64,000 bases of DNA from the NCBI RefSeq assembly GCF_017348835.2, contig NZ_CP071375.1; one strand, written 5' to 3'. The notes under the pieces are model-generated. The model searched no databases. It was not told the origin of the DNA and worked only from the letters and a program-made list of their open reading frames with translations. Position 1 is the stretch's first letter. Every line of letters begins with the position of its first letter. This DNA is from Escherichia coli. Its GTDB lineage: Bacteria > Pseudomonadota > Gammaproteobacteria > Enterobacterales > Enterobacteriaceae. The translations under genes were made by a program, and so were the position numbers. Of this stretch, positions 1-34,983 are shown piece by piece.

Positions 1-1254
1 CATGGAGGGAAATTACGTATCTGGTTTGTTTATAAAGGCGTAAGAGTCAGGGAAAACCTGGGGGTTCCTGACACAGCAAAAAACAGGCGCGTTGCAGGTG
101 AGCTACGCGCCTCTGTTTGTTACGCAATAAAAACTGGTGTTTTCGACTATGCAAAACAGTTTCCCTCCTCACGCAATCTGGAAAAATTTGGTGAGACTCG
201 ACAAGATTTAACCATAAAAGAACTGGCTGAAAAATTTCTGGCACTGAAAGAAACTGAAGTCGCAAAAACATCACTCAACACATACCGTGCCGTCATCAAA
301 AATATCCTGAGCATAATCGGTGAAAAAAATCTTGCCTCATCGATTAATAAAGAAAAATTACTGGAGGTTCGTAAAGAGCTACTGACTGGATACCAGATCC
401 CCAAAAGTAACTATATTGTTACACAACCAGGGAGATCGGCTGTAACTGTAAATAATTACATGACAAATCTTAACGCCGTGTTCCAGTTTGGTGTTGATAA
501 CGGTTACCTGGCAGATAACCCGTTTAAGGGGATCTCGCCATTAAAGGAATCAAGAACCATTCCGGATCCTCTTTCGCGGGAGGAATTCATCCGTCTTATC
601 GATGCGTGCAGAAATCAGCAAGCCAAAAATTTATGGTGTGTTTCTGTTTATACTGGCGTTCGCCCTGGTGAGCTGTGTGCACTTGGATGGGAGGACATAG
701 ATCTGAAAAATGGAACAATGATGATCAGGAGAAATTTAGCAAAAGACCGTTTCACGGTACCAAAAACACAGGCGGGAACCAATCGGGTCATTCATCTTAT
801 TAAGCCAGCAATCGACGCTCTCCGGAGTCAGATGACATTAACGAGACTGAGCAAAGAGCATATCATTGATGTTCACCTCAGAGAGTATGGCAGAACAGAA
901 AAACATAAATGCACCTTTGTTTTTCAACCTGAAGTGTCAGCGAGAGTAAAAAATTATGGTGACCATTTTACCGTTGACTCAATAAGGCAGATGTGGGACG
1001 CAGCGATAAAACGTGCCGGACTCCGCCATCGAAAATCATATCAGTCGAGACATACTTATGCCTGCTGGTCGCTGACAGCTGGTGCTAATCCGGCATTTAT
1101 AGCAAACCAGATGGGCCATGCAGATGCGCAAATGGTATTTCAGGTATACGGAAAATGGATGTCTGAAAACAATAATGCACAGGTAGCTTTGTTAAATACA
1201 CAGTTAAGCGAGTTTGCCCCAACCATGCCCCATAACGAAGCAATGAAAAATTAA
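1..1254 (+). CDS. Phage-type tyrosine integrase; 5' end lies before the window. By synteny (immediately upstream of rspB) this is the position of the Qin prophage integrase in K-12
   Basis: Frame 1 is open from nt 1 to the stop at 1254; the C-terminal part has the tyrosine recombinase catalytic region (...HTYACWSL...GHADAQMVFQVYGKW) and the N-terminal part looks like an integrase arm-binding domain. Confidence 0.75.
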   Translation, partial: HGGKLRIWFVYKGVRVRENLGVPDTAKNRRVAGELRASVCYAIKTGVFDYAKQFPSSRNLEKFGETRQDLTIKELAEKFLALKETEVAKTSLNTYRAVIKNILSIIGEKNLASSINKEKLLEVRKELLTGYQIPKSNYIVTQPGRSAVTVNNYMTNLNAVFQFGVDNGYLADNPFKGISPLKESRTIPDPLSREEFIRLIDACRNQQAKNLWCVSVYTGVRPGELCALGWEDIDLKNGTMMIRRNLAKDRFTVPKTQAGTNRVIHLIKPAIDALRSQMTLTRLSKEHIIDVHLREYGRTEKHKCTFVFQPEVSARVKNYGDHFTVDSIRQMWDAAIKRAGLRHRKSYQSRHTYACWSLTAGANPAFIANQMGHADAQMVFQVYGKWMSENNNAQVALLNTQLSEFAPTMPHNEAMKN

Positions 1255-5292: not shown

Positions 5293-6003
5293 TTAATAAT
5301 AATCGATTGTATTTTTGATGGTGTAAACCCGTTCAACGGCGGGTTTTACTCCTTCATCAACAATGATCAGCTGACAGTCCACCGGATTGGCGTGACTGTC
5401 ATATTCACAGCTCTGTTTTACATTACCAACTCGTTGATTATTCAGTAAAGTAACCGCTGTGTAATCTAATTTTTTGATCGGGTCCGTTGATGGCGTGGCG
5501 CTGACAGATAATGTTTTGTCGTTACTTTTCGTGGTTTTACCCAGTGGATAACCCTGATCATCATAGCGATATTCCATCTGCATTTGTTTGCTGCTGGCTT
5601 TAATCACGAAGCCATTATCATCGGTTTCCCAACTCACCCCGGCAGAAGGTAATTCTGCTAGCTGGCATTTTCCCTGTAAACGTACTCTCTTCTCCAGCGT
5701 CTCGGCATCACGGTAATAATTGGCGTCCAGTACCAGAGCGACCACGGTATTATTTTCCAGATCCAGTAATTCGAGTGAATCAAAACAGCCTTCTTCCGAC
5801 AAAGTCCCCGAAACACGTTTCGTCACTTCACCTTGCTCATCCATTAATGTCTGAGTGAAATCTTTTACCGGACCACGCAGCGGATCAAAATCGAATTCAT
5901 TAGAGAAACTGGCCATCTCAGGAGTAAATGAAAGTGTTACCTCTGTGCGGTCACATCCTGTGAGGAATATCGCGAGTAAGCATGGTAGTAATTTGTATTT
6001 CAC
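5293..6003 (-). CDS. ynfC: Lipoprotein YnfC (UPF0257)
   Basis: Lipobox LLPCLLAIFLTGC near the N-terminus; a GTG start at 6003 gives the K-12 length of 236 aa. Confidence 0.75.
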   Translation of the reverse strand: MKYKLLPCLLAIFLTGCDRTEVTLSFTPEMASFSNEFDFDPLRGPVKDFTQTLMDEQGEVTKRVSGTLSEEGCFDSLELLDLENNTVVALVLDANYYRDAETLEKRVRLQGKCQLAELPSAGVSWETDDNGFVIKASSKQMQMEYRYDDQGYPLGKTTKSNDKTLSVSATPSTDPIKKLDYTAVTLLNNQRVGNVKQSCEYDSHANPVDCQLIIVDEGVKPAVERVYTIKNTIDYY

Positions 6004-6416: not shown

Positions 6417-6614
6417 CACATTATCGACTGAACGCCGGATATGACACATCCGGCGATTTGAACATACAACATAATCCCACCATATTACTCATACCCTTCT
6501 ATTGATGTGGATTAATAATTCTTAACCCAAAATGGGTAGACTCCCTCTATTGTTAGCGCGCTAAATATTCAATATATAAACATTTATATAACGATAAAGA
6601 ACAGGGAGTGAGTT

Positions 6615-9041
6615 ATGTCCAAAAATGAACGAATGGTGGGCATCAGCCGCAGAACACTCGTTAAATCTACCGCGATAGGTTCTCTGGCGCTGGCTGCAGG
6701 CGGTTTTTCTTTGCCGTTTACCCTGCGCAGTGCAGCAGCAGCGGTACAACAGGCCCGCGAAAAAGTGGTCTGGGGTGCCTGTTCCGTCAACTGTGGTAGC
6801 CGCTGTGCACTTCGTCTACATGTTAAAGATAATGAAGTGACCTGGGTGGAAACTGACAATACCGGCAGCGATGAGTACGGCAACCATCAGGTACGCGCCT
6901 GTTTGCGCGGTCGCTCCATCCGCCGGCGTATTAATCATCCCGATCGCTTGAATTACCCAATGAAACGCGTGGGTAAACGCGGTGAAGGCAAATTCGAACG
7001 GATTAGCTGGGATGAAGCCCTGGATACTATCGCCAGTAGCCTGAAGAAAACCGTCGAACAATATGGCAATGAGGCTGTATATATTCAGTACTCTTCGGGG
7101 ATCGTTGGCGGCAATATGACCCGCTCTTCGCCATCAGCCTCGGCGGTCAAACGCCTGATGAACTGCTACGGCGGTTCACTCAATCAGTATGGTTCCTACA
7201 GCACCGCACAAATTTCCTGTGCCATGCCCTACACCTACGGCAGTAATGATGGCAACAGCACCACGGATATTGAAAACAGCAAGCTGGTCGTGATGTTTGG
7301 TAACAACCCGGCAGAAACCCGCATGAGCGGCGGTGGCATCACTTATCTTCTTGAAAAAGCGCGCGAGAAATCGAACGCCAAAATGATTGTTATCGATCCG
7401 CGATATACCGATACGGCTGCTGGTCGTGAAGATGAATGGCTTCCTATTCGCCCGGGCACCGATGCCGCGCTGGTTGCGGGGATTGCCTGGGTATTGATTA
7501 ACGAAAATCTCGTTGATCAACCTTTTCTCGATAAATACTGCGTCGGCTATGACGAAAAAACCTTACCCGCAGATGCACCCAAAAATGGTCACTATAAAGC
7601 CTATATTCTTGGTGAAGGTGACGATAAAACAGCGAAAACGCCGCAGTGGGCTTCGCAAATTACCGGTATCCCGGTGGACCGTATCATCAAACTGGCGCGT
7701 GAAATTGGCACAGCAAAACCCGCTTATATCTGCCAGGGCTGGGGGCCGCAACGCCAGGCAAACGGCGAGCTGACTGCACGCGCTATTGCTATGTTGCCTA
7801 TTTTGACGGGCAATGTCGGCATCAGCGGCGGAAATAGTGGCGCGCGTGAGTCGACCTATACCATTACCATAGAGCGACTGCCGGTGCTGGATAATCCGGT
7901 CAAAACGTCAATTTCCTGCTTCAGCTGGACAGATGCTATCGATCATGGTCCGCAAATGACGGCAATCCGCGACGGCGTCCGCGGCAAAGATAAACTGGAT
8001 GTACCCATTAAGTTCATCTGGAACTACGCGGGAAATACCCTGGTTAATCAGCATTCTGACATCAACAAAACGCATGAAATTCTGCAAGACGAATCGAAAT
8101 GCGAAATGATTGTGGTCATCGAAAACTTTATGACCTCATCGGCAAAATATGCCGACATTCTGCTGCCAGACCTGATGACCGTTGAGCAGGAAGATATTAT
8201 TCCTAACGACTACGCCGGTAACATGGGATATCTCATTTTCCTCCAGCCAGTCACCAGCGAAAAATTCGAACGTAAACCGATTTACTGGATCCTGAGTGAA
8301 GTCGCGAAACGTCTTGGACCTGACGTCTATCAAAAGTTCACTGAAGGTCGCACGCAGGAACAATGGTTACAACATCTGTACGCCAAAATGCTTGCCAAAG
8401 ATCCGGCGTTACCATCTTACGACGAACTGAAAAAAATGGGTATCTATAAGCGTAAAGATCCCAATGGTCATTTTGTCGCCTACAAAGCATTTCGTGACGA
8501 CCCCGAGGCAAATCCACTTAAAACACCTTCCGGTAAGATTGAAATTTATTCCAGCAGGCTGGCGGAAATTGCCCGTACCTGGGAACTGGAAAAAGATGAA
8601 GTGATAAGCCCACTGCCAGTTTATGCCTCTACCTTTGAAGGCTGGGACTCACCTGAACGTAGAACCTTCCCACTGCAACTGTTTGGTTTCCATTACAAAT
8701 CCCGTACTCACTCGACCTACGGCAACATTGATGTCCTGAAAGCAGCCTGCCGTCAGGAGGTGTGGATCAACCCTATAGATGCACAGAAACGTGGGATTGC
8801 CAACGGCGATATGGTGCGGGTGTTTAACCATCGTGGCGAAGTTCGGCTACCAGCCAAAGTGACACCACGTATTCTCCCTGGAGTTAGCGCTATGGGCCAG
8901 GGAGCCTGGCACGAGGCCAATATGTCTGGCGATAAAATCGACCATGGAGGCTGTGTGAATACGCTAACCACTCTGCGCCCTTCACCACTGGCGAAGGGAA
9001 ACCCGCAGCACACGAATCTGGTCGAGATCGAAAAAATATAA
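6615..9041 (+). CDS. ynfE: Tat-exported molybdopterin oxidoreductase catalytic subunit, DMSO reductase (DmsA) paralog YnfE
   Basis: 808 aa; twin-arginine signal (SRRTLVKS), Cys cluster CSVNCGSRC, molybdopterin oxidoreductase motifs. Confidence 0.9.
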   Translation: MSKNERMVGISRRTLVKSTAIGSLALAAGGFSLPFTLRSAAAAVQQAREKVVWGACSVNCGSRCALRLHVKDNEVTWVETDNTGSDEYGNHQVRACLRGRSIRRRINHPDRLNYPMKRVGKRGEGKFERISWDEALDTIASSLKKTVEQYGNEAVYIQYSSGIVGGNMTRSSPSASAVKRLMNCYGGSLNQYGSYSTAQISCAMPYTYGSNDGNSTTDIENSKLVVMFGNNPAETRMSGGGITYLLEKAREKSNAKMIVIDPRYTDTAAGREDEWLPIRPGTDAALVAGIAWVLINENLVDQPFLDKYCVGYDEKTLPADAPKNGHYKAYILGEGDDKTAKTPQWASQITGIPVDRIIKLAREIGTAKPAYICQGWGPQRQANGELTARAIAMLPILTGNVGISGGNSGARESTYTITIERLPVLDNPVKTSISCFSWTDAIDHGPQMTAIRDGVRGKDKLDVPIKFIWNYAGNTLVNQHSDINKTHEILQDESKCEMIVVIENFMTSSAKYADILLPDLMTVEQEDIIPNDYAGNMGYLIFLQPVTSEKFERKPIYWILSEVAKRLGPDVYQKFTEGRTQEQWLQHLYAKMLAKDPALPSYDELKKMGIYKRKDPNGHFVAYKAFRDDPEANPLKTPSGKIEIYSSRLAEIARTWELEKDEVISPLPVYASTFEGWDSPERRTFPLQLFGFHYKSRTHSTYGNIDVLKAACRQEVWINPIDAQKRGIANGDMVRVFNHRGEVRLPAKVTPRILPGVSAMGQGAWHEANMSGDKIDHGGCVNTLTTLRPSPLAKGNPQHTNLVEIEKI

Positions 9042-9098
9042 CCCACGACAACCATAAATTCTGGCATGACATTTTGTTTGAAAAGCAATAAGTGAGTA

Positions 9099-11524
9099 AT
9101 GATGAAAATCCATACCACAGAGGCGCTCATGAAGGCTGAAATCAGCCGTAGAAGTCTGATGAAAACCTCCGCACTTGGCAGTCTTGCGCTGGCAAGCAGT
9201 GCTTTCACTCTGCCATTTTCCCAAATGGTCCGGGCGGCAGAGGCTCCGGTAGAAGAGAAAGCGGTCTGGAGTTCCTGCACCGTTAACTGCGGGAGCCGCT
9301 GTCTGTTACGTTTGCATGTGAAAGATGACACCGTGTACTGGGTGGAGTCTGATACGACAGGTGACGACGTCTACGGTAATCATCAGGTTCGAGCGTGTTT
9401 ACGCGGTCGCTCTATCCGCCGACGGATGAATCATCCTGATAGGTTGAAATATCCCATGAAGCGCGTCGGCAAGCGCGGTGAAGGTAAATTTGAACGGATA
9501 AGTTGGAACGAAGCCCTGGATACCATCAGTGATAATCTTCGGCGGATCCTAAAAGATTACGGCAATGAGGCTGTACATGTCCTGTACGGAACAGGTGTAG
9601 ATGGCGGAAACATCACCAACTCAAACGTCCCGTACCGTCTGATGAACTCTTGCGGTGGTTTTCTCAGTCGCTATGGCAGCTACAGTACCGCACAGATCAG
9701 TGCCGCATGAGTTATATGTTCGGTGCCAATGATGGCAACAGCCCGGATGATATCGCCAATACGAAACTGGTCGTTATGTTCGGAAATAACCCGGCAGAAA
9801 CACGGATGAGCGGCGGTGGTGTCACTTACTACGTCGAGCAAGCCCGCGAACGTTCAAACGCACGCATGATCGTCATCGATCCACGTTATAACGACACAGC
9901 TGCCGGGCGTGAAGATGAATGGCTGCCCATTCGCCCTGGCACCGATGGCGCACTGGCCTGTGCGATTGCCTGGGTACTGATTACTGAAAACATGGTCGAA
10001 CAGCCATTTCTCGACAAATATTGTGTTGGTTATGATGAAAAAACGCTGCCCGCCAACGCACCACGTAACGCGCATTATAAAGCCTATATTCTGGGCGAAG
10101 GGCCTGACGGCATAGCTAAAACGCCGGAATGGGCAGCAAAAATCACCAGCATCCCGGCAGAAAAAATTATCCAGTTGGCGCGAGAGATCGGTTCAGCAAA
10201 ACCTGCTTATATTTGTCAGGGTTGGGGGCCACAACGACACTCCAACGGCGAACAAACATCCCGCGCTATTGCCATGCTTTCCGTTCTCACCGGTAACGTC
10301 GGCATAAACGGCGGCAACTCAGGCGTACGCGAAGGTAGCTGGGATCTGGGGGTAGAATGGTTTCCGATGCTCGAGAATCCTGTTAAAACGCAGATTTCCG
10401 TCTTTACATGGACAGATGCCATCGACCATGGTAAGGAAATGACCGCGACCCGTGATGGTGTTCGTGGAAAAGAAAAACTGGATGTCCCCATCAAGTTTTT
10501 ATGGTGCTACGCCAGTAACACATTGATCAATCAACATGGTGACATCAATCACACCCATGAGGTGCTTCAGGATGACAGCAAGTGCGAGATGATTGTTGGC
10601 ATTGACCACTTCATGACTGCCTCGGCTAAGTATTGCGATATCCTGTTGCCCGACCTGATGCCAACAGAGCAAGAAGACCTTATCTCTCATGAATCTGCCG
10701 GGAATATGGGCTATGTGATCCTCGCCCAACCCGCAACCTCAGCAAAATTTGAACGCAAACCCATCTACTGGATGCTGAGTGAAGTCGCCAAACGCTTAGG
10801 ACCGGACGTTTATCAAACCTTTACTGAAGGTCGCAGTCAGCATGAATGGATCAAATATCTCCATGCGAAAACGAAGGAACGTAACCCTGAGATGCCCGAC
10901 TACGAGGAGATGAAAACAACCGGGATCTTTAAGAAAAAATGCCCGGAAGAACACTACGTCGCTTTCCGCGCATTCCGTGAAGATCCACAGGCAAACCCGT
11001 TGAAAACACCTTCGGGGAAAATCGAAATTTATTCTGAACGACTGGCGAAGATTGCAGATACCTGGGAATTGAACAAAGATGAAATTATTCATCCCCTTCC
11101 TGCGTATACCCCAGGTTTTGATGGCTGGGACGATCCCCTGCGGAAAACCTATCCACTGCAGTTAACGGGCTTCCACTACAAAGCGCGTACCCACTCCAGC
11201 TACGGCAATATTGATGTGTTACAGCAGGCCTGCCCACAAGAGGTGTGGATCAACCCCATTGATGCTCAGGCTCGCGGTATCCGTCATGGCGATACCGTAC
11301 GGGTATTTAACAATAATGGAGAAATGCTGATTGCCGCAAAAGTGACTCCGCGTATTCTGCCTGGCGTTACCGCCATCGGGCAAGGTGCGTGGCTTAAAGC
11401 AGATATGTTTGGTGACCGGGTCGATCACGGCGGCAGTATCAATATTCTGACCTCTCACCGCCCTTCACCGCTGGCAAAGGGAAACCCGTCGCACAGCAAT
11501 CTTGTCCAGATCGAAAAGGTTTAA
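9099..11524 (+). pseudogene. ynfF: DmsA-paralog YnfF, apparently frameshifted: the reading frame breaks near 9700 (...TAQISAA* then MSYMFGANDG in the +1 frame)
   Basis: Two ORFs (9099..9710 and 9650..11524) together cover a full-length YnfE paralog; a single missing base around 9705..9708 would restore one 807-aa frame. Confidence 0.6.
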
Positions 11525-11534
11525 GGAGTAGCCC

Positions 11535-30155: not shown

Positions 30156-30389
30156 TTATTCTCCGGTGTGCTGTTCTTTATATCTGTCGTGCAATAGATC
30201 TATTTCTTGCAGTTCCATTATTACATGCTCAAGAATCGTTATTAATGCCGTGGCAATTCTTGATTTTTGTTTGTCGCGTTCATTGTCGCCAAGTGTTTCA
30301 AGCCATATGCGCAATATTTCCAGCATGTTTTCACTGTGAGAAAGTGCAAGAAATGCGCGGTCTATTGTTTCGAGGTAAATATCACGCAT
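30156..30389 (-). CDS. Hypothetical protein (77 aa)
   Basis: ORF in the operon upstream of rep. Confidence 0.4.
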   Translation of the reverse strand: MRDIYLETIDRAFLALSHSENMLEILRIWLETLGDNERDKQKSRIATALITILEHVIMELQEIDLLHDRYKEQHTGE

Positions 30390-30390
30390 A

Positions 30391-30612
30391 TTAATCCCCG
30401 TCCGTTGTTTTTCTTAAAATAACTTCTGTCACGAAATCAGCATAGTTAGCGGCAATATCAAGAATATTTAGCCCTGTATCTCTGTGCTCATCAGTGCAAA
30501 GAAAGAAAAAAGCCACCCGCATAATTTCAGATATTGACGAAAGCGCATCAGCCGCATCATCAGGAACGCCGGAAAATTCTTGTTTCAGGGAATTAAAACG
30601 ATCATCACGCAT
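30391..30612 (-). CDS. Hypothetical protein (~73 aa; start uncertain)
   Basis: ORF in the operon; start chosen just downstream of the preceding stop. Confidence 0.3.
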   Translation of the reverse strand: MRDDRFNSLKQEFSGVPDDAADALSSISEIMRVAFFFLCTDEHRDTGLNILDIAANYADFVTEVILRKTTDGD

Positions 30613-30821
30613 AACCCCCCCCATTTTCATAATCTGCAACAAGAATATTTTTAGCGTCATTCAGCGACCGCGTGGCGGTGTATCGGATACATTCCAGGGC
30701 GAACAATGTGTATTCCTCCCGTTCTTCCTTTTGTGCAAGCTCTGCCGTGCATTCAATATCAATAAGCGCGTGCATCAGCGTAGTGAGTGCGGCTGCGTCC
30801 GGACGGATGTTATTGCACATG
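30605..30821 (-). CDS. Hypothetical protein (~72 aa)
   Basis: ORF in the operon; start at internal Met MCNNIRPD. Confidence 0.3.
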
Positions 30822-31043
30822 GTGTACCCCTCCGCATTTTTTTTCGTTAGAAATAAGCGTTCTTCTTTCCTGTTCATCGCTCAGGAATACGCAGACCTCA
30901 CCGCTAAGGCGTTTAAGTAAGCCGATGATTGCCCCTGATTCGCTGTCGGTCATCATGCCAGGGTAATCCTCTGCCAGTGCGCAAATAACTTCGATTTGGT
31001 GGGCGCGTTCTGCTGCCTGTTGTAGTGTGATTTCCTGGCTCAT
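30810..31043 (-). CDS. Hypothetical protein (~77 aa)
   Basis: ORF in the operon; start MSQEITLQQ, ATGA-coupled to the upstream gene. Confidence 0.35.
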   Translation of the reverse strand: MSQEITLQQAAERAHQIEVICALAEDYPGMMTDSESGAIIGLLKRLSGEVCVFLSDEQERRTLISNEKKCGGVHHVQ

Positions 31044-31234
31044 AAGCCTACCCCCTGGCGAATACGGGCGGCGAATACAGCAACACAACCTGACGGGCAA
31101 CGGTTACGCGCTTCGCGTTCCGTCCAGGCGGTTACGTGGATTATTTGAGATTCTCCGGCACTCAGTGCCAGAAAACGCCACACAAAGGCCGTTTGTGTGT
31201 GTACAAGGTGTGGTATATGATTTACAGCAACCAT
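31040..31234 (-). CDS. Hypothetical protein (~64 aa), first gene of the minus-strand early operon
   Basis: Start MVAVNHIPHLV; lies next to the divergent promoter region. Confidence 0.3.
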   Translation of the reverse strand: MVAVNHIPHLVHTQTAFVWRFLALSAGESQIIHVTAWTEREARNRCPSGCVAVFAARIRQGVGL

Positions 31235-31326
31235 AACGGCTCCTAGTTTACGTTGTTGGTTAGAAGCCCTGCGAGTGGTAACGACACTTGCGGGGCTTTG
31301 TCTTTTCATCGATTACCTTGATAAAG

Positions 31327-31408
31327 GTGTCAGCCACTATATTAGTAACGGGTGTCAGCCACGTCAATAGTGTTTTTCCGTTTTCTTGTGTGTATACTGT
31401 CAGCCACC
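31327..31408. promoter_or_regulatory. Divergent promoter/operator region with three direct repeats of GTGTCAGCCAC
   Basis: Repeats at 31327..31337, 31352..31362 and 31398..31407, the last next to the RBS of the plus-strand gene. Confidence 0.55.
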
Positions 31409-31428
31409 TAATAACGAGGAAATCAGAT

Positions 31429-31608
31429 ATGGCAACAAAAGCAGTTAATGCAAAATCCAAAAAGCTTGAGGCTCGAGTACCACACGCAATAGCTGATGCT
31501 GTAGAAAATTTAAAGGAAGATGGCGAAAGTACAGGGCAATTTATCGTTTCGGCACTTGAAGGCGAGATCAAACGCCGCCAGCGCCGCAAGGCCAAAGAAT
31601 CAGAATAA
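31429..31608 (+). CDS. Small basic protein (59 aa), divergently transcribed; candidate island regulator
   Basis: ORF MATKAVNAKSKKLEARVPHAIADAVENLKEDGESTGQFIVSALEGEIKRRQRRKAKESE with a GAGGA-like RBS. Confidence 0.45.
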   Translation: MATKAVNAKSKKLEARVPHAIADAVENLKEDGESTGQFIVSALEGEIKRRQRRKAKESE

Positions 31609-31650
31609 TCACTATCAGCGCCGTGGTGTGAGGTATTACGGCGCATTGCT

Positions 31651-31839
31651 ATGCAGGACAACACAATGACCGATAAAGAATTGACCAAAACATTATCACC
31701 GGCACGGAAAAGACGGCGCAGAAAGATAGAACATGAATCAGAAAGATTCGCGCCATGTGCTTTTGCCCTTGAGCAATTCCTTAAAGAGTACAGGGAAAAG
31801 CGCTCATTGCAGGTATGGCAACGAACTGAACCAGACTGA
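31651..31839 (+). CDS. Hypothetical small basic protein (start uncertain)
   Basis: Second plus-strand ORF before the plus-strand terminator. Confidence 0.3.
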   Translation: MQDNTMTDKELTKTLSPARKRRRRKIEHESERFAPCAFALEQFLKEYREKRSLQVWQRTEPD

Positions 31840-31934
31840 TTGCATTGCCCACCAGCCTGATAGCGGCTATCATCCCCGTGCTTATGTTTGGGATCACACA
31901 CACAAACGGCGCAGCGGGTTATCTGTTCAGAAAG

Positions 31935-31962
31935 GCGGCTCCATTTCGGGGCCGCTTTTTTT
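31935..31962 (+). terminator. Intrinsic terminator of the plus-strand small-gene transcript (GCGGCTCC ... GGGGCCGC followed by TTTTTTT)
   Basis: 8-bp stem with one G-U pair, followed by a U-run. Confidence 0.6.
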
Positions 31963-32108
31963 ATGCCTGAAAAACCCCAATTTTGTGGTTTTCCAGTCTC
32001 ACCAGGGCGAACGAATCCCCGCCCACGTTCTGGCGTATATTCAATCTTCATGGTTATAGCTCTGTGTTCAGATGATTGATGTGTGGCGGCTGTGTGCCGC
32101 CAGCGTGA

Positions 32109-32297
32109 TTAATGAACTGCCTTGCAGCTATCCTTCCAGGCCAGAACCTCGGATAAAGACCAGCCAACGGAACGACCGCCAAGTTTACGACGTGATGGGA
32201 ATTGTCCGGCCTTTTCCAGGCGGTAGCGGCATGAGCGGCTAAGGCCTGTTAGCTTTTCGCATTCTTTTTCACGTATAAACCGATCAGTGCTTAACAC
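32109..32297 (-). CDS. alpA: AlpA-family transcriptional regulator / excisionase-like protein
   Basis: 62 aa, MLSTDRFIREKECEKLTGLSRSCRYRLEKAGQFPSRRKLGGRSVGWSLSEVLAW, a typical AlpA HTH. Confidence 0.8.
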   Translation of the reverse strand: MLSTDRFIREKECEKLTGLSRSCRYRLEKAGQFPSRRKLGGRSVGWSLSEVLAWKDSCKAVH

Positions 32298-32456
32298 TAT
32301 TGCCCCCTTTCGTTTCTTAAAGAGTTATTTCGTGTTCTATTGCGTTGGGATGTGTCTGATTGTGTCAGGATGATTCAGAGTTGGCAAATGTTGAGGTCGT
32401 ATGGTTTACAGAAACAGGAATAATCAGGATAAAATCATTTAAATTCATGTTAATAC

Positions 32457-32490
32457 AAAGGCATAAAATATTGTTTCATGCCTTTTTTCT
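32457..32490 (+). terminator. Plus-strand hairpin with U-run (AAAGGCAT ... ATGCCTTT TTTTCTC) in the alpA-int intergenic region
   Basis: Read directly from the sequence; there is no annotated plus-strand gene upstream. Confidence 0.45.
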
Positions 32491-32671
32491 CGCCATTTAA
32501 AGAGTGATTCGCTAGTGTATAAAAAACCAGTAACACATTAAAAATCAGCCACTTATAAATCCGTACACTTTTTCGCCTCTTGTTCGTAGTTGTTCCGCAT
32601 TGTTGCTCATTGTTGCATGTTGTATCTGTTCGCATATCCAGTATGCGCATACTGAAAAAACACGAAAAAAA

Positions 32672-33901
32672 TTATTTTCTTCTGGCTACTGGTAGCGTGG
32701 TTACGTTTTCATGTGTTCCCGCCAGTATCCCTAACCGCTCCGTCCACATATCCAGCGCATTGCGTTTAGCATCCAGATAACGGGAATGATTATAAACTCG
32801 CTGCATTCCTGGCATCTGATGACCTGTAAGCTGCTCCACGACATGCGGATCAACGCCTAAATCGTTCAGCATGGTTGTAAAGGTGCGCCGGATGTCATGC
32901 AGTGACCAGTGAGGATGATTAAGCCTCCTGTGCGCTAATCTTCCATACTGCGATACGCTGGCCTCCTGTTTCGCTTCCCCCAGCAATAAGCCCGTGTGCC
33001 TGTTCTGCTCCACCAGCTGCGTGACGAACGGCAGGATCGCTTCCGGTATGGGCCGGAATATTGCGACCTTCGTTTTGCTGTGCTCCTTCGGAACGGTCCA
33101 TAGCATTTCCGTAAAATCCCACTCCCCGATCTCCGATAGCCTCAGTTCTACCGTCCTGGCTCCGAAGACAATCAGGAGGCGGATTAACGCGACGTAGTAA
33201 GGGGAAAATATTTTTTTGTCCAGTGCCTGCAATAATTCGCCAAGTTCTTTGTTACTTAAGACACGTTCGCTTATATCCGGTTTTTTCCCAACGTCCGCCA
33301 CGTTCAGATCGTCCAGAACGTTGCTGATTGCATAGCGCCGCCTACGGCAGAACTTAAGCGCCTGTTTGCACGCCTGTAGCACGAATCCGGCAGTAACAGG
33401 CGTTCGCTTTGCCACCTGGTCAAAACAGGCCAGCCAGTGCCGTAGCTCGCATTTATCCAGCGGCATAGCACCAATCTGCTGTATTACGTGATTATTAAGT
33501 CGCCTTTTCAGGGCGATATAATCCACGCGGTTTTCCTTTACGTAATACTCAAGCCAGTAGGTGAGCGCATCGCCAACCGTTACGGGCTTTAACGCTTCCT
33601 GTACGGTGTAATTCATCTCATGACGTGGATTTTTCCCCTCAGCCAGCCATGTGCGACACTGTGCGGCTTTTTCCCTGGCTGCTTTCAGGCTCAGATCAGG
33701 ATAACTTCCCAGCTTAATGCGTTCGGGTCGTGTCTCCCTTCCCGTTCCGGCCCTGTATGTGAAATACCAGGTCAATTTCCCTGATGTTAAATATTTCACG
33801 CTCAGGTTTCCGCCATCACTATAAAACGTGTTTTTCTCCGCTGGCTTACCATGAAGTTTCCTTAGCAAGGTATCGCTCAGTTTGTTCATTGCTCTGCTCA
33901 C
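32672..33901 (-). CDS. int: Tyrosine integrase, P4-like family
   Basis: 409 aa; N-terminal P4-type arm-binding region (GKLTWYFTYRAGTGRETRPERIKLGSYPDLSLKAAREKA) and a C-terminal catalytic domain (HDIRRTF...Y); adjacent to attR. Confidence 0.85.
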   Translation of the reverse strand: MSRAMNKLSDTLLRKLHGKPAEKNTFYSDGGNLSVKYLTSGKLTWYFTYRAGTGRETRPERIKLGSYPDLSLKAAREKAAQCRTWLAEGKNPRHEMNYTVQEALKPVTVGDALTYWLEYYVKENRVDYIALKRRLNNHVIQQIGAMPLDKCELRHWLACFDQVAKRTPVTAGFVLQACKQALKFCRRRRYAISNVLDDLNVADVGKKPDISERVLSNKELGELLQALDKKIFSPYYVALIRLLIVFGARTVELRLSEIGEWDFTEMLWTVPKEHSKTKVAIFRPIPEAILPFVTQLVEQNRHTGLLLGEAKQEASVSQYGRLAHRRLNHPHWSLHDIRRTFTTMLNDLGVDPHVVEQLTGHQMPGMQRVYNHSRYLDAKRNALDMWTERLGILAGTHENVTTLPVARRK

Positions 33902-33926
33902 GTTTTACCCCCTCTTTACGAAAAAG

Positions 33927-33949
33927 TGACTACACCAGTGACTACACCG
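33927..33949. repeat. Putative integrase arm-type site, right copy (TGACTACACCAGTGACTACACCG)
   Basis: Exact 23-bp direct repeat of 22668..22690. Confidence 0.55.
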
Positions 33950-34076
33950 ATCGTTGCACAAAGGGCTACAACGTGAAACAAGCTGGAACAAGGAAAATCA
34001 CAAATCTGTTGATAATCAAAAACATAATGCACAGCCTGAAACATTATGAAACAGCAAAAAACACTAAATGATAAAA

Positions 34077-34085
34077 TGCTGTTAT
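34077..34085. other. attR core, right copy of TGCTGTTAT
   Basis: Island-to-tqsA junction; tqsA sequence resumes in frame. Confidence 0.6.
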
Positions 34086-34983
34086 TCTTAACCCGCTGGT
34101 GCAACACATGGTCCGCTGGCGAGTGCCGCGTGTACTGGCGGTGTCGATTTTGATGACCATCATCGTGATGGCTATGGTGTTGCTGTTAGCTTATCTGGGT
34201 TCCGCGCTCAACGAGTTGACGCGGACGTTACCGCAATATCGCAACTCTATTATGACGCCGCTGCAAGCGCTTGAACCGTTGTTGCAACGCGTAGGGATTG
34301 ACGTCTCAGTTGACCAGCTGGCGCATTATATTGATCCGAACGCGGCGATGACGTTGCTCACCAACTTATTGACGCAGTTATCTAATGCCATGTCATCAAT
34401 ATTTTTATTGCTGCTGACGGTGCTGTTTATGCTGCTCGAAGTGCCACAATTGCCCGGAAAATTTCAGCAAATGATGGCGCGTCCGGTTGAAGGGATGGCG
34501 GCGATTCAGCGTGCGATTGACAGTGTGTCTCATTATCTGGTGCTGAAAACAGCCATCAGCATCATCACCGGCCTGGTCGCATGGGCGATGCTCGCCGCCC
34601 TCGATGTTCGCTTCGCTTTTGTCTGGGGATTGCTGGCCTTTGCGCTTAATTACATCCCTAATATTGGTTCAGTTCTCGCGGCAATCCCCCCTATCGCTCA
34701 GGTACTGGTATTTAATGGCTTCTACGAAGCGTTGCTGGTGCTGGCGGGATATCTGCTGATTAATCTGGTCTTCGGCAATATTCTGGAGCCGCGCATCATG
34801 GGGCGTGGGCTGGGTCTTTCCACATTGGTGGTATTTTTGTCGTTGATTTTTTGGGGATGGTTGTTAGGACCGGTGGGTATGCTGCTTTCCGTGCCGTTGA
34901 CAATTATTGTCAAAATTGCGCTTGAACAAACAGCGGGAGGTCAAAGCATCGCCGTTCTGTTAAGCGATCTCAATAAAGAGTGA
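34085..34983 (+). pseudogene. tqsA: 3' fragment of tqsA (AI-2E family transporter), about 299 codons, separated from its start and promoter
   Basis: Translation [24 protein letters not shown]... continues the 5' fragment at 22457..22591. Confidence 0.85.

What the first reader, a model, noticed from the sequence alone, without database searches (positions are those of the whole stretch)
9690..9712. Apparent 1-nt frameshift in ynfF
The YnfE-paralog frame ends at ...TAQISAA* and resumes in the +1 frame at MSYMFGANDG; the rest of the gene is intact. This is either a real inactivation of the second DMSO-reductase-like catalytic subunit or a base-calling error.
Basis: seen in the sequence. Interest (0 to 1): 0.35.

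Follow-up and report, generated by a model that had tools for sequence, protein, structure and literature searches.

The report
Real one-base deletion splits ynfF
A single missing A breaks the E. coli gene ynfF, the second copy of a selenate/DMSO-type reductase. It is a genuine inherited mutation of one pig-associated strain lineage, not a sequencing error, and it is an ordinary pseudogene that RefSeq already flags.

Summary
ynfF (window 9102-11524, + strand) is broken at 9707. Intact E. coli read GCC GCA ATG AGT; the window reads GCC GCA TGA GT, so one A of an AA doublet is missing. The upstream frame stops at TGA 9708-9710 (…TAQISAA*).

The window is E. coli PE164 (O108:H9, pig, China) or a near-identical sibling. 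It is not a base-calling error:
- Of 5,292 complete E. coli genomes carrying this segment, only PE164 and the independently sequenced F2_81 (pig, Australia) have the deletion.
- The exact downstream product is on record on 26 contigs and the exact upstream fragment on 33.
- All seven further loci fetched (two NCBI assemblies, five sequencing-run assemblies) carry the same deletion.

NCBI's PGAP pipeline already annotates ynfF as "frameshifted" in both complete genomes. The most likely consequence is loss of YnfF. This is tolerated because the paralogue ynfE is intact here. A sub-lineage (F2_81 type) has also lost ynfE to an IS3-flanked insertion.

One curiosity: the two ORFs overlap as ATGA and together encode every YnfF residue, so a coupled two-piece enzyme is not excluded but is unlikely. 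Interest is low.

The parts
9102..11524 (+). ynfF pseudogene (selenate/tellurate reductase catalytic subunit YnfF), interrupted by a 1-nt deletion
   Evidence: PGAP annotates these coordinates in PE164 as 'ynfF, frameshifted'. The sequence is 99.1-99.2% identical to intact ynfF of other E. coli, which are 2427 nt against 2426 nt here.
9706..9708 (+). Deletion site: the single A at 9707 stands where intact genes have AA (GCA ATG has become GCATG)
   Evidence: Alignment of the window, PE164 and F2_81 against the intact O145 gene shows one gap column. Of 5,292 complete genomes, 5,290 carry the extra base.
9099..9710 (+). N-terminal ORF: 203 aa from ATG 9099, 202 aa from the PGAP start 9102. It holds the twin-arginine signal (SRRSLMK), the Fe4S4 domain, the first quarter of the molybdopterin domain and the predicted Mo-ligand Ser195, and ends at TGA 9708-9710.
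   Evidence: Pfam gives Molybdop_Fe4S4 at residues 53-112 and Molybdopterin profile columns 1-86. NCBIfam selenate_YnfF matches profile positions 1-193. Ser of GSYST aligns with Ser147 of R. sphaeroides DMSO reductase 1EU1.
9707..11524 (+). C-terminal ORF in the -1 frame: 605 aa from ATG 9707 (MSYMFGANDG...). It holds the rest of the molybdopterin domain and the Molydop_binding domain and has no signal peptide.
   Evidence: Pfam gives Molybdopterin columns 102-353 and Molydop_binding. NCBIfam selenate_YnfF matches profile positions 194-798. This exact product is called on 26 contigs.
9707..9710 (+). ATGA stop/start overlap created by the deletion. No Shine-Dalgarno-like motif lies in the 20 nt upstream (ACCGCACAGATCAGTGCCGC).
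   Evidence: Read directly from the sequence. Gene callers place the two ORFs with a 4-nt overlap in all lineage contigs.
6615..9041 (+). ynfE, the intact 808-aa paralogue (70.5% identical to restored YnfF) that can cover the lost function
   Evidence: The gene is intact in the window, PE164, L005, L006, L007 and L010, and interrupted in F2_81, L004, L008 and L009.
11535..13665 (+). Downstream operon genes ynfG (11535-12152), ynfH (12154-13008) and dmsD (13051-13665), all intact
   Evidence: PGAP annotation of PE164.

Best explanation
This is a genuine 1-bp deletion: one A of the AA doublet at the Ala202/Met203 codon boundary, GCA-ATG to GCATG. It is fixed by descent in one clonal, apparently pig-associated E. 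coli lineage, represented by O108:H9 strain PE164 and by F2_81.

Translation from the ynfF start ends at TGA 9708-9710. This yields a fragment of about 202 aa that carries the Tat signal, the FS0 [4Fe-4S] motif and the predicted Mo-ligand serine, but lacks about 75% of the enzyme. Full-length YnfF therefore cannot be made, and ynfF is a pseudogene.

The loss is tolerated because YnfE is an intact paralogous isoenzyme in the same operon and ynfG, ynfH and dmsD remain intact. A sub-lineage has since also interrupted ynfE, so the locus is decaying stepwise.

Shown: the deletion, its distribution, and the otherwise intact gene. Inferred: loss of function and near-neutrality.
For: - Site and frames.
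- Restoring one A gives an intact 807-codon gene.
- The window matches PE164 over 64 kb with 3 mismatches.
- Only PE164 and F2_81 among 5,292 complete genomes carry the deletion. F2_81 is a distinct strain: Australia against China, different IS and island content, and 5 mismatches over about 40 kb of aligned sequence.
- The exact 605-aa downstream product is on 26 contigs and the exact 193-aa upstream product on 33 contigs from NCBI, ENA and Logan.
- All 7 loci fetched by that look-up carry GCCGCATGAGT. They come from two NCBI assemblies and from SRR, ERR and DRR sequencing runs, with 0-6 SNPs against the window.
- PE164 was sequenced on Illumina NovaSeq, and the site is a dinucleotide, not a homopolymer run (sequence).
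- PGAP flags ynfF 'frameshifted' in both complete genomes.
- Redundancy: YnfE and YnfF are described as paralogous isoenzymes. [quoted passage not shown]
- Independent disruption of ynfF by an IS3-family element in O145 strains shows the gene is dispensable.
Against: - No reads were inspected, so the argument against error rests on concordant independent assemblies.
- Apart from the deletion the gene has no second lesion. The two ORFs overlap as ATGA and together encode the full protein, so complete loss of function is not proven.
- The excess of lineage-specific amino-acid changes in ynfF (4 nonsynonymous, 11 synonymous) over ynfE (1, 11) is too small to demonstrate relaxed selection.
Confidence: 0.86

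Rival explanations
1. Functional split gene. Ribosomes terminating at TGA 9708-9710 reinitiate at the overlapping ATG 9707-9709, the classic ATGA translational coupling. The 202-aa N-piece and 605-aa C-piece, which together contain every YnfF residue, would then assemble, acquire the cofactor and be exported together via the N-piece's Tat signal.
For: - The ATGA overlap is present and no residue is lost.
- The NCBIfam YnfF profile is covered contiguously, 1-193 then 194-798.
- There is no second disabling mutation in any lineage member examined, although they differ by up to 6 SNPs over 13.8 kb.
- Reinitiation at overlapping stop/start codons, and Tat co-export of signal-less partners, are established phenomena (general knowledge, not tested here).
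Against: - The break is 7 residues after the predicted Mo-ligand Ser195, inside the Pfam Molybdopterin domain, not at a domain boundary.
- No Shine-Dalgarno motif precedes the ATG (sequence).
- The split is confined to one young lineage, 2 of 5,292 complete genomes, so nothing shows it is maintained by selection.
- Three of the four lineage-specific substitutions (D136N in the conserved WDEALD motif, D300E, K658N) are absent from 12 other YnfF variants sampled. The fourth, T445K, occurs in two of them.
- A sub-lineage went on to interrupt ynfE as well, which fits general decay of the locus.
Confidence: 0.08
2. Base-calling or assembly error: the real genome has AA and ynfF is intact.
For: Single-base indels are the commonest assembly error. 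PGAP marks four genes in this 64-kb window as frameshifted.
Against: - The identical deletion is in F2_81 and in 7 further fetched loci from different submitters and run archives.
- The site is an AA doublet, not a homopolymer run.
- PE164 was sequenced on Illumina.
- The neighbouring ynfM frameshift is also shared with F2_81, so it too is lineage-inherited rather than noise.
Confidence: 0.02
3. Programmed -1 ribosomal frameshifting restores full-length YnfF.
For: The required shift is -1, and the stop codon sits exactly at the shift site (sequence).
Against: - There is no slippery X XXY YYZ heptamer. The in-frame context is AGT GCC GCA TGA.
- The arrangement is absent from 5,290 of 5,292 genomes, which encode the protein in one frame.
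Confidence: 0.01

Closest known systems
E. coli ynfF (selenate/tellurate reductase subunit YnfF; DmsA-type catalytic subunit of the DMSO reductase family) in the ynfEFGH-dmsD operon
   Same: Same locus and gene order. 99.1-99.2% nucleotide identity to intact ynfF. The best NCBIfam model is selenate_YnfF for both halves. The Tat motif, Fe4S4 domain, molybdopterin domains and an aligned Mo-ligand Ser are all present.
   Different: One A is missing at the codon 202/203 boundary, so the reading frame is split into 202-aa and 605-aa ORFs.
Other natural ynfF and ynfE disruptions in E. coli: the IS3-family insertion in ynfF of O145 strains, and the IS3-flanked insertion in ynfE of F2_81
   Same: Independent inactivation of one catalytic paralogue of the same operon, annotated as pseudogene fragments.
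   Different: Those are insertion events that physically separate the halves. Here a point deletion leaves the halves adjacent and overlapping by ATGA.
Translationally coupled overlapping genes (ATGA junctions, for example within the trp operon)
   Same: The stop and start codons overlap by the same four bases.
   Different: Here the junction arose by mutation inside a single-domain region of one protein. There is no evidence of coupling or of function for the pieces.

Membership tests
YnfF / DmsA-type molybdoenzyme catalytic subunit | Sequence matches the curated YnfF model better than the YnfE or DmsA models | tested here: met
   N-piece: 386.9 bits (YnfF) against 299.9 (YnfE) and 279.8 (DmsA). 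C-piece: 1359.8 against 1158 and 1020. The YnfF profile is covered 1-193 then 194-798. Neither piece alone reaches the 1650-bit cutoff; their simple sum, 1746.7, does.
YnfF / DmsA-type molybdoenzyme catalytic subunit | Twin-arginine signal, N-terminal Fe4S4 domain, Molybdopterin domain and Molydop_binding domain | tested here: met
   The SRRSLMK motif is seen in the translation. PF04879, PF00384 and PF01568 are all found, with PF00384 divided between the two ORFs.
YnfF / DmsA-type molybdoenzyme catalytic subunit | Serine ligand to molybdenum | tested here: met
   Ser195 (GSYST) aligns with residue 147 of 1EU1, R. sphaeroides DMSO reductase. That Ser147 is the Mo ligand is from general knowledge.
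YnfF / DmsA-type molybdoenzyme catalytic subunit | Genomic context ynfE-ynfF-ynfG-ynfH-dmsD | tested here: met
YnfF / DmsA-type molybdoenzyme catalytic subunit | A single uninterrupted reading frame of about 807 codons | tested here: not met
   The frame is broken at 9707-9710.
Lineage-fixed pseudogene | Disrupted relative to intact orthologues, with the same lesion shared by independent isolates of one clade | tested here: met
Lineage-fixed pseudogene | Further decay: extra lesions or an elevated nonsynonymous rate | tested here: inconclusive
   There is no second lesion. Lineage-specific changes are 4 nonsynonymous and 11 synonymous in ynfF against 1 and 11 in ynfE, which is too few to judge.
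Lineage-fixed pseudogene | Absence of functional product | not testable with these tools
   This needs protein detection or an enzyme assay.
Programmed ribosomal frameshift site | Slippery sequence at the shift site and conservation of the two-frame arrangement among relatives | tested here: not met
   There is no X XXY YYZ motif at AGT GCC GCA TGA. The arrangement is in only 2 of 5,292 genomes.
Translationally coupled split gene | Overlapping stop/start, and evidence that both products are made and needed | tested here: inconclusive
   The ATGA overlap is present. No Shine-Dalgarno motif is present. Expression and function are not testable here.

The most novel reading that the evidence does not exclude
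The deletion has fortuitously turned YnfF into a perfect two-piece protein, nicked between Ala202 and Met203 with no residue lost. The pieces would be made by termination-reinitiation at ATGA, assemble with the molybdenum cofactor and be exported together by the Tat system on the N-piece's signal peptide. The enzyme would then still work in this lineage.
Probability: 0.07. Interest if true: 0.4.

Novelty: already known. Interest (0 to 1): 0.08.

Why it matters
It matters little beyond bookkeeping.

- It settles that the frameshift is biological, so the assembly need not be corrected at this site.
- It gives a clean single-base marker for this lineage, which includes strains from pigs in China and Australia.
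- It shows stepwise decay of the ynf selenate/tellurate reductase locus: ynfF first, then ynfE and ynfC in a sub-lineage. F2_81-type strains are therefore predicted to lack Ynf-dependent selenate and tellurate reduction.

Those strains are also a ready-made natural test of whether the two-piece YnfF retains any activity.

Tried and rejected
- **203-aa N-fragment look-up.** An exact look-up of the fragment starting at ATG 9099 found nothing, because gene callers start that ORF at a later Met. The 193-aa version is on 33 contigs.
- **Literature on F2_81.** The search returned only irrelevant hits. One paper search failed on syntax. The sequence type of the lineage was not established.
- **Programmed frameshifting.** Considered and rejected: no slippery site and no conservation.
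- **Assembly error.** Considered and rejected on concordant independent assemblies.
- **Promoter/terminator scan of 9000-13800.** Promoter-like sites were no more frequent than in shuffled sequence (4 found against 4.7 expected), and none lies before ATG 9707. It says nothing useful about polarity.
- **Not run.** Structure prediction and a deep homologue search for natural splits at this position were left out. They could only bear on the low-probability split-enzyme reading and would not decide it.

Full report
**What is in the sequence.** Window 9690-9712 reads gcacagatcagtgccgcATGAgt. An ORF from ATG 9099 (PGAP start 9102) ends at TGA 9708-9710 with ...GSYSTAQISAA*. A second frame, open from 9650, contains ATG 9707-9709 and reads MSYMFGANDGNSPDD... 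to the stop at 11522-11524. An intact ynfF (O145:H28 RM12761) differs at the site by a single gap column: GCC GCA ATG AGT against GCC GCA TGA GT. One A of an AA doublet is therefore missing. Re-inserting it gives an 807-codon gene with no other stop or indel.

**Where the window comes from.** The window matches E. coli PE164 (NZ_CP114128.1, 2633049-2697048) over its full length. There are three C/T mismatches, at 6570, 26736 and 50805. It is therefore PE164 in another assembly version, or a near-identical sibling. PE164 is an O108:H9 hybrid aEPEC/ExPEC isolate from a piglet in Nanjing. It was sequenced on Illumina NovaSeq and assembled with Unicycler (PMC12233904). PGAP annotates 9102-11524 as 'ynfF, selenate/tellurate reductase subunit YnfF, frameshifted'.

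**Error or real mutation.**
- A 71-nt probe across the site matches 5,292 of 5,426 complete E. coli genomes. Only two match without the gap: PE164 and F2_81.
- F2_81 comes from a pig rectal swab in Australia and is a different strain. It has an IS3 in ynfC and an insertion of about 8.4 kb, carrying two IS3 copies, in ynfE. It lacks the 11.5-kb element that interrupts tqsA in the window. It differs from the window by five mismatches over about 40 kb of aligned sequence.
- The next closest complete genome is only 98.8% identical over 25 kb, so these two genomes define a distinct lineage.
- The exact 605-aa downstream product is on record on 26 contigs and the exact 193-aa upstream product on 33 contigs, from NCBI, ENA and Logan run assemblies.
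- The seven loci fetched all contain GCCGCATGAGT. They are GCA_032490275.1, GCA_900196645.1, and contigs from SRR9203409, ERR3970200, SRR11484303, DRR634072 and ERR13361288. In all of them the two ORFs are called with a 4-nt overlap.
- These loci carry 0-6 SNPs against the window over 10-14 kb.

A coincident error in a non-homopolymer dinucleotide across this many independent data sets is not credible. The deletion is real and inherited.

**What it does.** The interrupted gene lies in the normal ynfE-ynfF-ynfG-ynfH-dmsD context.
- The N-terminal ORF carries the twin-arginine motif (SRRSLMK), the Fe4S4 domain (PF04879, residues 53-112) and the first 86 columns of the Molybdopterin domain.
- The C-terminal ORF carries the remaining Molybdopterin columns (102-353) and the Molydop_binding domain.
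- NCBIfam's selenate_YnfF model is the best hit for both pieces and is covered contiguously, 1-193 then 194-798.
- In the alignment to R. sphaeroides DMSO reductase (1EU1), the Ser of GSYST (Ser195 in 807-residue numbering) falls on residue 147. From general knowledge that residue is the molybdenum ligand. The break (Ala202|Met203) is thus seven residues past the predicted metal ligand and inside a domain, not at a domain boundary.

Full-length YnfF cannot be made by normal decoding. There is no slippery heptamer (AGT GCC GCA TGA), so programmed -1 frameshifting is rejected. The most likely outcome is a non-functional truncated N-piece, that is, a pseudogene.

**Why it is tolerated.** ynfE is intact in the window (808 aa, 70.5% identical to restored YnfF). 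YnfE and YnfF are described as paralogous selenate reductase isoenzymes (PMC12724226). [quoted passage not shown]

Within the present lineage there are two architectures. ynfE is intact in the window, PE164, L005, L006, L007 and L010. It is interrupted at window position ~8011 in F2_81, L004, L008 and L009. All of them share the ynfF deletion, so it predates the ynfE event, and the locus is decaying stepwise.

Lineage-specific codon changes are 11 synonymous and 4 nonsynonymous in ynfF (D136N, D300E, T445K, K658N) against 11 and 1 in ynfE. Three of the four (D136N, D300E, K658N) are absent from 12 other YnfF variants sampled; T445K occurs in two of them. D136 lies in the conserved WDEALD motif. 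This is suggestive of relaxed constraint, but the numbers are too small to count as evidence.

**The one curiosity.** The deletion removed the A shared between GCA and ATG. As a result the stop and restart overlap as ATGA, and the two ORFs together encode every YnfF residue. Termination-reinitiation at such overlaps is well known, and Tat can export signal-less partners bound to a signal-bearing subunit (general knowledge). A working two-piece enzyme is therefore not excluded. Against it:
- the break lies close to the active site;
- there is no Shine-Dalgarno motif before the ATG;
- the split is restricted to one young lineage;
- ynfE was subsequently lost in part of that lineage.

I give this reading about 7%.

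**Verdict.** This is a real, lineage-fixed single-base deletion that makes ynfF a pseudogene. It is already flagged as such in RefSeq. It is ordinary gene decay of a redundant paralogue, and interest is low.

Noticed in passing
window 18244-19496 (+): ynfM (MFS transporter) is also annotated 'frameshifted' in PE164. The same-length pseudogene is annotated in F2_81, so this is a second lineage-shared frameshift close to ynfF. The exact site was not located.
   Followed up: partly
window 22594-34076 (tqsA fragments at 22457-22600 and 34078-34983): An 11.5-kb integrase-bearing element interrupts tqsA in the window. It carries a tyrosine recombinase, a RepA-family helicase, an Icd-like protein, a PerC-family regulator, a major capsid protein, a head decoration protein and a small terminase, the last two frameshifted. 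It is absent from F2_81, where tqsA is intact. The gene content resembles a phage satellite or a degraded prophage.
   Followed up: partly
window 6570, 26736, 50805: The window differs from RefSeq PE164 (assembly version .2) at three positions, all C/T transitions. Position 6570 lies 45 nt upstream of the ynfE start. There the window, F2_81, L005 and L007 have C, while RefSeq PE164 and L006 have T. The window is thus another assembly version or a sibling isolate.
   Followed up: partly
L013 (F2_81 NZ_CP043542.1 2357296-2370787); breakpoints at window ~5818-5820 and ~8011-8025: In the F2_81 sub-lineage ynfE is split by an insertion of about 8.4 kb that carries two IS3-family copies and several hypothetical genes. 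The window-homologous flanks overlap by 15 bp at the junction. ynfC is split by another IS3 copy with a 3-bp overlap. L004 and L008 show a Phage_integrase-domain gene next to the truncated ynfE instead, so the inserted content may differ among isolates.
   Followed up: partly
hits H8-H14, H20-H27, H30 (E. coli O145 genomes): Many O145 genomes, several typed O145:H28, have ynfF interrupted by an IS3-family transposase. This is an independent inactivation of the same gene in another lineage.
   Followed up: no
window 1-1254 (+): A tyrosine recombinase/integrase gene lies next to rspB at the window start. In F2_81 the same integrase borders a Qin-like cryptic prophage region carrying relBE, hokD, cspB/F/I, ydfK and pinQ.
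   Followed up: no
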